DNA of 64,000 nucleotides from the human T2T-CHM13v2.0 reference genome, Homo sapiens: the NCBI RefSeq assembly GCF_009914755.1, contig NC_060925.1; one strand, 5' to 3'. The notes under the pieces were generated by a model. That model was not told the origin of the DNA. It saw only the letters and a list, made by a program, of their open reading frames with translations, and did no database searches. Both the position numbers and the translations under genes were made by a program. Position 1 is the stretch's first letter. The number at the start of each line of letters is the position of its first letter. Positions 44,523-64,000 of this stretch are shown piece after piece.

Positions 44523-63787
<19,265 letters not shown>

Positions 63788-63951
63788 TTATGAGTATAAA
63801 ATAAGTACTTTTTTGCGTATCTTCAACTGATATAGTAATAAGATATCAAGATATAGCAGATACGTCATCTTTTATAGCTACCTATCTATATTTTCAAGCA
63901 GTATATCATCTTTTATTATTGGATGAAAATTTTTCAGTTGCTACTCAGATT

Positions 63952-64000
63952 TTTTTTTTTTTTTTTAGACAGAGTCTCACTGTGTTGCCCAGGCTGGGGT
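63952..64000 (-). mobile_element. Alu 3' end, cut by the window edge
   Basis: Poly-T then AGACAGAGTCTCACTGTGTTGCCCAGGCTGG. Confidence 0.85.

What the first reader, a model, noticed from the sequence alone, without database searches (positions are those of the whole stretch)
63781..63810. ODR4 exon 11 splice donor appears destroyed (G|TT instead of G|GT), with an in-frame cryptic rescue 6 nt downstream
Seen: exon 11 ends ..CCA GAA AAA AAA G and is followed by TTATGAGT. Recalled: ODR4 continues EIPEKK-DSEKEF, which I place as a phase-1 junction (G|AT) at c.1000. The expected donor would be AAG|GTATGA, one G>T change at 63788 away (c.1000+1G>T). Inferred outcomes: (a) use of the new GT at 63787-88 removes 1 nt and frameshifts; (b) skipping the 91-nt exon frameshifts; (c) read-through gives VMSIK-stop (TAA 63802-04); (d) the cryptic TGA|GTATAA at 63794 adds 6 nt and gives in-frame KK-VMN-SEK. 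Outcomes a-c would remove the C-terminal membrane anchor. This haplotype may therefore carry a loss-of-function or naturally rescued ODR4 allele.
Basis: partly seen in the sequence, partly recalled or inferred. Interest (0 to 1): 0.82.

Follow-up and report, generated by a model that had tools for sequence, protein, structure and literature searches.

The report
ODR4 exon 11 splice donor missing
In this reference genome the intron after ODR4 exon 11 begins with TT instead of the usual GT, so this copy probably cannot make the normal membrane-anchored protein; it is an ordinary kind of splice-site variant.

Summary
Exon 11 of ODR4 ends at 63787 (an A8 run, then G) and is followed by TTATGAGT. 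Placed on this assembly, the RefSeq Select transcript NM_017847.6 has a TT-AG intron 11, while its other 12 introns are GT-AG.

In a sample of 328 Select donors on chr1, this was the only one that was not GT, GC or AT. Two Gnomon models already use the GT at 63787-88.

I recomputed all four outcomes and they hold. Only the +6-nt site at 63794 keeps the frame. It is the weakest nearby GT in my matrix (-6.0 bits; real donors score 1.4 to 14.5).

I could not see GRCh38, other primates, variant databases or RNA reads. So G>T versus loss of one G, the allele frequency and the actual splicing all remain untested. The most likely reading is a real, largely loss-of-function donor variant in this haplotype. 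That is an ordinary kind of event, with practical consequences for CHM13-based annotation.

The parts
63676..63696 (+). Acceptor of ODR4 exon 11: pyrimidine-rich tract ending in AG (63695-96)
   Evidence: sequence; one search shows the intron 10 acceptor is AG.
63697..63787 (+). ODR4 exon 11 (91 nt, c.910-1000), coding AVKRD...EIPEKK plus the first base of the next codon
   Evidence: RefSeq annotation. Translation. Pfam PF14778 profile positions 285-313 of 375, E = 1.8e-5.
63779..63786 (+). A8 run at the 3' end of exon 11 (codons GAA AAA AAA)
63788..63789 (+). TT at intron positions +1 and +2 of the annotated junction: the non-canonical donor
   Evidence: It is the only TT among 328 Select donors sampled. 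The 9-mer scores -3.84 bits.
63787..63788 (+). GT formed by the last exon base and the first T. Used as donor by Gnomon XM_054337258.1 and XM_054337259.1; removes 1 nt and shifts the frame
   Evidence: exon end 185753786. (GT-AG, 354 and 322 aa). (AAA|GTTATG, -1.82 bits). (stop 231 nt before the last exon junction).
63794..63795 (+). Cryptic GT that would add 6 nt in frame (Asp replaced by Val-Met-Asn)
   Evidence: 456 aa, frame kept. (TGA|GTATAA, -6.02 bits).
63802..63804 (+). In-frame TAA, reached by read-through or by any donor further downstream
   Evidence: 338 aa for retention and for the +17 and +29 donors.
63805..63806 (+). Next GT downstream (TAA|GTACTT); the extended exon includes the TAA
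   Evidence: -1.88 bits.

Best explanation
The ODR4 copy in this reference haplotype carries a real sequence variant that removes the GT donor of intron 11, at c.1000+1 of NM_017847.6. It is either a G-to-T change at 63788 or the loss of one G of a GG pair; the letters here cannot tell these apart.

Shown:
- The normal mRNA junction (...AAAAAAAAG|ATTCTG...) can be drawn on this DNA only with a TT-AG intron, or equivalently a GT-TA one. The major spliceosome is not expected to use either.

Inferred:
- Exon 11 still has a good acceptor, so the transcript is most likely processed in one of three ways: through the GT one base upstream (63787-88, -1 nt), by skipping exon 11 (-91 nt), or by retaining or extending into intron 11.
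- Each of these puts a stop codon more than 100 nt before the last exon junction, so by the 50-55-nt rule the mRNA should be degraded by nonsense-mediated decay.
- Any protein made would lack the last ~16% of the ODR4-like domain and the C-terminal membrane anchor.
- A minor in-frame product from the GT at 63794 (+6 nt) is possible but looks disfavoured.
- The net effect is a null or strongly hypomorphic ODR4 allele. From published ODR4 knockouts in HEK293 cells, its cellular signature would be less UFSP2 protein and more UFM1-modified RPL26.
For: - Sequence: TT at 63788-89.
- The RefSeq Select transcript, 2 further curated transcripts and 2 Gnomon models have TT-AG at this one intron, with every other intron GT-AG.
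- The exon 12 acceptor is TTTTAG|ATTCTG. The 454-aa ORF needs the G at 63787 as first base of the Asp codon.
- Donor census: 322 GT, 4 GC, 1 AT and 1 TT (this site) among 328 Select donors.
- Putting a G at 63788 raises the matrix score from -3.84 to 6.43 bits, the 14th percentile of real donors. One extra G gives 2.07 bits, within the range of ODR4's other weak donors.
- Outcomes and stop positions.
- Gnomon already models the -1 product on this assembly.
- Domain loss: exon 12 covers PF14778 profile positions 321-374 of 375. The strongest hydrophobic window is at residues 431-452.
- The locus is single copy, so no paralogue confuses the assembly.
- ODR4 function: described as ER-anchored in the PMC13137144 abstract. 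The PMC3945108 abstract, as seen in the listing, calls odr-4 a conserved tail-anchored protein. Knockout lowers UFSP2 and raises RPL26 UFMylation (bioRxiv 10.1101/2022.02.28.482207, passages).
Against: - I had no other human assembly, primate sequence, variant database or RNA read. That other genomes have GT here is therefore inferred from the existence of the curated mRNA and from splicing rules, not seen.
- The -1 GT is itself a poor donor by my matrix (-1.82 bits, below all 322 real donors), so which aberrant product dominates is a guess.
- The Gnomon -1 models may only reflect the software's preference for GT-AG when transcripts from other genomes are aligned. They are not evidence of use in these cells.
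- The matrix was trained on only 322 donors from gene-dense, G+C-rich tiles, and it scores 7 of ODR4's own 12 GT donors under the 7th percentile. It may undervalue A+T-rich donors such as the cryptic ones.
- No paper I could search mentions this variant.
Confidence: 0.7

Rival explanations
1. Naturally rescued allele. The spliceosome uses the GT at 63794-95, adding 6 nt in frame. This makes a 456-aa ODR4 in which one Asp is replaced by Val-Met-Asn, in amounts sufficient for function.
For: The frame is kept and the rest of the protein, including the membrane anchor, is unchanged. The junction falls between Pfam profile positions 313 and 321, which neither exon's translation aligns to. That suggests a length-variable linker that might tolerate two extra residues (inference).
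Against: TGA|GTATAA scores -6.02 bits. That is lower than all 322 real donors, lower than the -1 site (-1.82) and lower than the median of the 3062 GTs scored in the window (-2.23). It has A at -1 and A at +5, where 83% and 75% of sampled donors have G. No annotated transcript uses it.
Confidence: 0.12
2. Consensus error in the assembly. The cells really have GT, and one base next to the A8-G run was miscalled or dropped.
For: The site follows a homopolymer, and a dropped G in a GG pair is a typical long-read error type. I could not look at reads.
Against: From recall, not tested here: the published per-base error estimate for this polished assembly is several orders of magnitude below the rate of true single-base differences between two human haplotypes. 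The region is single copy and not in a masked repeat, so assembly should be straightforward.
Confidence: 0.04
3. The TT is the usual human state and is also in GRCh38, and the normal mRNA is made through a truly non-canonical TT-AG (or GT-TA) intron.
For: I could not see GRCh38. A Select transcript only has to match GRCh38 in its exons.
Against: None of the 315 sampled Select donors outside ODR4 falls outside GT, GC or AT. The donor is not U12-like: it reads TTATGA, and no branch-site-like TCCTTAAC motif lies in the last 60 nt of the intron (by eye; motif recalled). Gnomon built separate GT-AG models here, as it would to get round a non-canonical intron; I could not see what GRCh38 has.
Confidence: 0.04

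Closest known systems
Essential splice-donor (+1) variants of U2-type GT-AG introns, the standard 'predicted loss-of-function' class in human variant annotation
   Same: The obligatory G at +1 of a canonical-type intron is lost. The acceptor, pyrimidine tract and flanking exons are normal. The predicted consequences are the usual ones: cryptic donor use, exon skipping or retention, then a premature stop and mRNA decay.
   Different: Here it sits in a public reference assembly that represents a single haplotype, so no second, normal allele is in view. The annotation has had to draw a TT-AG intron. The exact change (substitution or 1-base loss) is not established.
One-base donor shift: when the last exon base is G and +1 becomes T, a new GT appears one base upstream (my own knowledge; two literature searches for a citable example gave nothing usable)
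   Same: G at 63787 plus T at 63788 form such a GT, and Gnomon's models XM_054337258.1 and XM_054337259.1 use it.
   Different: The shifted site has poor flanks (A at -1, T at +3, T at +5; -1.82 bits). Its use here is not demonstrated.
Recognised non-GT donor classes: GC-AG introns and U12-type AT-AC or AT-AG introns
   Same: They are also exceptions to GT at the donor and do occur in curated transcripts: 4 GC and 1 AT among 328 sampled donors, including a GC-AG intron in the neighbouring TPR gene.
   Different: The ODR4 site has T at +1, which neither class allows. It also lacks the strong consensus flanks of GC donors and the ATATCC box of U12 donors.

Membership tests
U2-type GT-AG intron | GT at intron positions +1 and +2 | tested here: not met
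   TT at 63788-89 for the annotated junction.
U2-type GT-AG intron | AG at the 3' end, preceded by a pyrimidine tract | tested here: met
   ...TTTCTTTTCCTTTTAG|ATTCTG at chr1:185760847/48.
GC-AG intron | GC at +1 and +2, usually with near-consensus flanks | tested here: not met
   TT at +1 and +2. The four GC donors in the sample read AAG|GCAAGT, CAG|GCAAGC, TCG|GCATGT and AAG|GCACTA.
U12-type intron | Donor box (A/G)TATCC(T) and a TCCTTAAC-like branch site close to the acceptor (motifs recalled) | tested here: not met
   The donor reads TTATGAGT. By eye, the last 60 nt before exon 12 hold no stretch with fewer than 3 mismatches to the branch motif.
ODR4-like protein family (Pfam PF14778) | Significant match to the family profile across the coding exons | tested here: met
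   5 of 6 exon translations tested match PF14778. Four score 30.3 to 53.5 bits, above the 24.5-bit cut-off. Exon 11 scores 24.3 bits (E = 1.8e-5), just under it. Exon 13, the linker, has no match. A whole-genome scan finds only this locus.
ODR4-like protein family (Pfam PF14778) | C-terminal tail anchor (single hydrophobic segment at the very end) | tested here: met
   The highest Kyte-Doolittle 19-residue window starts at residue 432 of 454 (mean 2.05), encoded by exons 13-14. The PMC3945108 abstract, seen in the listing, calls odr-4 tail-anchored.
Targets of nonsense-mediated decay (50-55-nt rule; established knowledge) | [quoted passage not shown] | tested here: met
   The stop lies 231 nt (-1 product), 231 nt (exon 11 skipped), 297 nt (+17) and 309 nt (+29) before the last junction, and far more for full retention. 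Whether decay actually occurs was not testable.
Loss-of-function splice variant relative to other human genomes | Other genomes carry GT at this position | not testable with these tools
   No GRCh38, pangenome, primate or variant-database access. Seven literature searches gave nothing on this site.

The most novel reading that the evidence does not exclude
The T allele is not private to this reference but a reasonably common human haplotype. On this reading ODR4, the ER anchor and stabiliser of the UFM1 protease UFSP2, would be a naturally occurring human knockout or hypomorph. Alternatively the allele could be kept functional by an unusual in-frame +6-nt donor.

One small RNA-seq study names a GRCh38 SNP 'located in ODR4', with neighbours in TPR and PRG4, as its top splicing-QTL signals (PMC12522691, passages). 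That would fit a common splice-altering haplotype at this locus. By my coordinate arithmetic, however, the named SNP lies in intron 3, not at this donor.
Probability: 0.1. Interest if true: 0.5.

Novelty: new member of a known kind. Interest (0 to 1): 0.27.

Why it matters
There are two practical points and one biological one.

First, anyone who uses T2T-CHM13 as the coordinate system inherits a broken ODR4 model. Curated transcripts lift over with a TT-AG intron, and ab initio models give a 354-aa truncated protein. Splice-aware aligners, variant-effect predictors and proteogenomic databases built on this assembly will therefore mis-handle a gene that is intact in the curated transcript set. 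Samples with the usual allele would be called as carrying a variant that appears to create a splice site.

Second, the CHM13 cell line may be a ready-made ODR4-deficient background. Published knockouts show that loss of ODR4 lowers UFSP2 and raises ribosomal UFMylation. Work on UFMylation, ER ribosome quality control or GPCR export in these cells would be affected.

Biologically it is one more example of a predicted loss-of-function allele carried without a second copy. That bears on how dispensable ODR4 is at the cellular level. It opens no new mechanism.

Tried and rejected
- Literature. No paper in the library links ODR4 or C1orf27 with this donor, with c.1000+1 or with CHM13. A search for the estimated hg19, hg38 and CHM13 coordinates as number prefixes returned only PubMed-id coincidences. 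The sQTL search gave one ODR4 paper; its SNP is not this site. Passages on C1orf27 in PMC5099142, PMC6072708, PMC4734150, PMC10944961 and PMC7788061 concern other variants or isoform names. I used two of them only as coordinate anchors. Supplementary tables, where loss-of-function variant lists normally sit, were closed and may well hold this variant.

- Citation for the one-base donor shift. Searches found nothing usable. PMC6395343 (passages) deals with other kinds of donor change, and I take nothing from it.

- Paralogue or processed pseudogene as a comparison. None was found. PF14778 matches only the ODR4 exons, and 301 bases around the donor are single copy.

- Solved structure. No PDB chain matches exon 11 or exon 12 translations.

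- Orthologue comparison. Not done. The word search needs a query near full length, which would have meant typing a joined sequence, and single exons are too short to reach 454-aa proteins.

- Second-site frame restoration. An alternative acceptor that would restore the frame with the -1 donor would need a purine-rich cryptic AG 14 nt into exon 12. I rejected this by eye.

- Intronic polyadenylation. The nearest ATTAAA is 859 nt into the intron and there is no AATAAA in the first 2.5 kb, so I did not pursue it.

- 'open_frame_aa 341'. It was not reproduced: the frame is 90 codons from stop to stop.

- PWM caveat. The matrix has 322 training donors from G+C-rich tiles. MaxEntScan and SpliceAI were not available.

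Full report
**What is in the sequence**

One search shows exon 11 of ODR4 ending ...GAA ATT CCA GAA AAA AAA G at 63787. The eight A's occupy 63779-63786. The next bases are TTATGAGTATAAAATAAGTAC.

GT dinucleotides lie at 63787-88, 63794-95 and 63805-06. A TAA in the exon's reading frame lies at 63802-04. Every coordinate in the finding is correct.

**What the annotation does with it**

I read the per-transcript table supplied for scripts and took exon 12 and the last exons from the same genome. I then extracted the splice dinucleotides of all 8 ODR4 transcripts.

- NM_017847.6 (Select), NM_001164245.2, NM_001164246.2, XM_054337257.1 and XR_008486081.1 end exon 11 at 63787. Each therefore has a TT-AG intron there.
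- Every other intron of every transcript is GT-AG.
- Exon 12 (chr1:185760848-185761033) starts ATTCTG after ...TTTCTTTTCCTTTTAG.
- Joined as annotated, the coding exons give an uninterrupted 454-aa protein. Exon 11 is c.910-1000, and the Asp codon after EIPEKK is split G|AT.

The only alternative way to draw the same mRNA is a GT-TA intron, which is just as non-canonical.

Two Gnomon models, XM_054337258.1 and XM_054337259.1, end exon 11 at 63786. They use the GT at 63787-88 with the same acceptor. This drops one base and gives 354- and 322-aa proteins that leave the frame after EIPEKK and stop inside exon 12 at chr1:185760911-13.

I do not count these models as evidence that the site is used in cells. 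A GT-AG-preferring aligner fed transcripts from other genomes would produce the same model.

**How unusual it is**

I fetched twenty 10-kb exon-dense pieces of chr1. With the window and the ODR4 pieces, that gave 328 Select donors: 322 GT, 4 GC, 1 AT (an ATATCC, U12-like donor in USP21) and 1 TT, the ODR4 site. None of the 315 donors outside ODR4 falls outside the three recognised classes.

**Strength of the candidate donors**

A 9-position log-odds matrix built from the 322 GT donors scores real donors from 1.39 to 14.52 bits, median 9.77. The candidates scored as follows.

| Site | 9-mer | Score (bits) |
|---|---|---|
| Annotated junction (63787\|63788) | AAG\|TTATGA | -3.84 |
| -1 site (GT at 63787) | AAA\|GTTATG | -1.82 |
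| +6 site (GT at 63794) | TGA\|GTATAA | -6.02 |
| +17 site (GT at 63805) | TAA\|GTACTT | -1.88 |

All are below every real donor in the sample. The median of the 3062 GTs scored in the window is -2.23.

The first reasonable GTs downstream lie at exon-end offsets +292 and +442 (7.4 and 9.07 bits). Both sit inside a masked repeat and beyond the in-frame TAA.

For orientation, a G at 63788 would raise the annotated junction to 6.43 bits, the 14th percentile. One extra G after 63787 would give 2.07 bits, similar to several of ODR4's own weak donors. Both routes to the present letters are therefore plausible, and the substitution gives the better ancestral donor.

There is a caveat. The training set is small and G+C-rich, and it rates 7 of ODR4's 12 GT donors under the 7th percentile.

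**Consequences**

| Splicing outcome | Protein | Stop relative to last exon junction |
|---|---|---|
| -1 nt (GT at 63787) | 354 aa | 231 nt before |
| Exon 11 skipped (91 nt) | 324 aa | 231 nt before |
| Intron retention | 338 aa, ending five residues after EIPEKK | far more than 300 nt before |
| +17 or +29 donor | 338 aa, ending five residues after EIPEKK | 297 and 309 nt before |
| Exons 11 and 12 skipped | 305 aa | 102 nt before |
| +6 nt (GT at 63794) | 456 aa, in frame; Asp replaced by Val-Met-Asn | normal stop |

By the 50-55-nt rule (established knowledge), every product except +6 should be a target of nonsense-mediated decay.

Pfam PF14778 (ODR4-like, 375 positions) aligns exon 11 to positions 285-313 and exon 12 to 321-374. 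Truncation therefore removes the end of the conserved domain. It also removes the linker and the hydrophobic tail at residues ~431-452.

The junction itself falls in profile positions that neither exon aligns to. That is weak support for the idea that a two-residue insertion could be tolerated.

**What ODR4 does**

- The PMC3945108 abstract, as seen in the listing, calls odr-4 a conserved tail-anchored protein acting with ODR-8/UFSP2 at the ER.
- PMC13137144 (abstract and section 9) describes C1orf27 (ODR4) as the ER anchor that recruits UFSP2. It places the AlphaFold3-predicted contact at residues Q259-C275, upstream of the break.
- bioRxiv 10.1101/2022.02.28.482207 (passages) reports that ODR4-knockout HEK293 cells have markedly less UFSP2 and phenocopy UFSP2 loss for RPL26 UFMylation.

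This gives a concrete cellular read-out for whether the allele is null.

**What I could not establish**

I had no access to GRCh38, other human or primate assemblies, variant databases or reads. Supplementary tables of papers were closed. Seven literature searches found nothing on this site.

Using two published hg19 positions in the gene (c.326 in PMC6072708; c.736 in PMC7788061), I place c.1000+1 near hg19 chr1:186,368,178. With a recalled offset, that is hg38 chr1:186,399,046.

One small study names a GRCh38 SNP 'located in ODR4' among its strongest splicing-QTL signals (PMC12522691). By the same arithmetic that SNP maps to intron 3. The study has 41 samples, so I treat it only as a hint that a splice-altering haplotype may be common at this locus.

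**Verdict**

The most likely reading (confidence 0.7) is a true donor-destroying variant in this haplotype with mostly loss-of-function consequences.

The alternatives are in-frame rescue through the +6 site (0.12), a consensus error (0.04), and a universally non-canonical intron (0.04). This is a known kind of event in a gene where it has not, as far as I could search, been described. Its main importance is practical, for users of this reference and of the cell line.

Noticed in passing
window 28068 (- strand), TPR: One TPR intron has a GC-AG donor (AAG|GCAAGT), one of 4 GC donors among the 328 sampled.
   Followed up: no
window 47894, 53291, 55594, 58757, 63184; chr1:185761033 and 185772416: 7 of ODR4's 12 GT donors score under the 7th percentile of my 322-donor matrix. 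The gene seems to rely on weak donors, or the G+C-rich training set undervalues A+T-rich ones.
   Followed up: partly
window 63940-64000, continuing to chr1:185754254 (L001:341-655): A masked repeat of 315 bases begins with a 17-T run followed by an Alu-like antisense start (family name recalled, not tested). It holds the best-scoring GTs near exon 11, at exon-end offsets +292 and +442. These are possible exonisation sites, but both lie after the in-frame TAA.
   Followed up: partly
window 63042-63056: XM_054337260.1 uses an exon 10 acceptor 14 nt upstream of the Select one. This shifts the frame and stops at 63062, giving 266 aa.
   Followed up: no
L013 (chr1:160302069, USP21): A Select intron has an ATATCC donor and an AG acceptor, a U12-like AT-AG intron. 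It is the only AT donor in the sample.
   Followed up: no
L024 (chr1:185760820-185761089): the genome search reported 'open_frame_aa 341' for the exon 12 match. Stop to stop, the frame is only 90 codons, and no ORF of 150 aa or more exists there. The column evidently means something else.
   Followed up: yes
between window 50822 (ODR4 exon 4) and 58713 (exon 9): The offset between published hg19 coordinates and this assembly changes from 614,389 to 614,390 (with my arithmetic). A 1-base length difference from hg19 therefore lies somewhere in these 8 kb.
   Followed up: no
PRG4-TPR-ODR4 region (GRCh38 chr1:186.30-186.38 Mb): PMC12522691 lists SNPs in PRG4, TPR and ODR4 among its strongest splicing-QTL signals, with 20, 17 and 21 events (passages). 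They may tag a single haplotype. The target events are in a supplement I could not open.
   Followed up: partly
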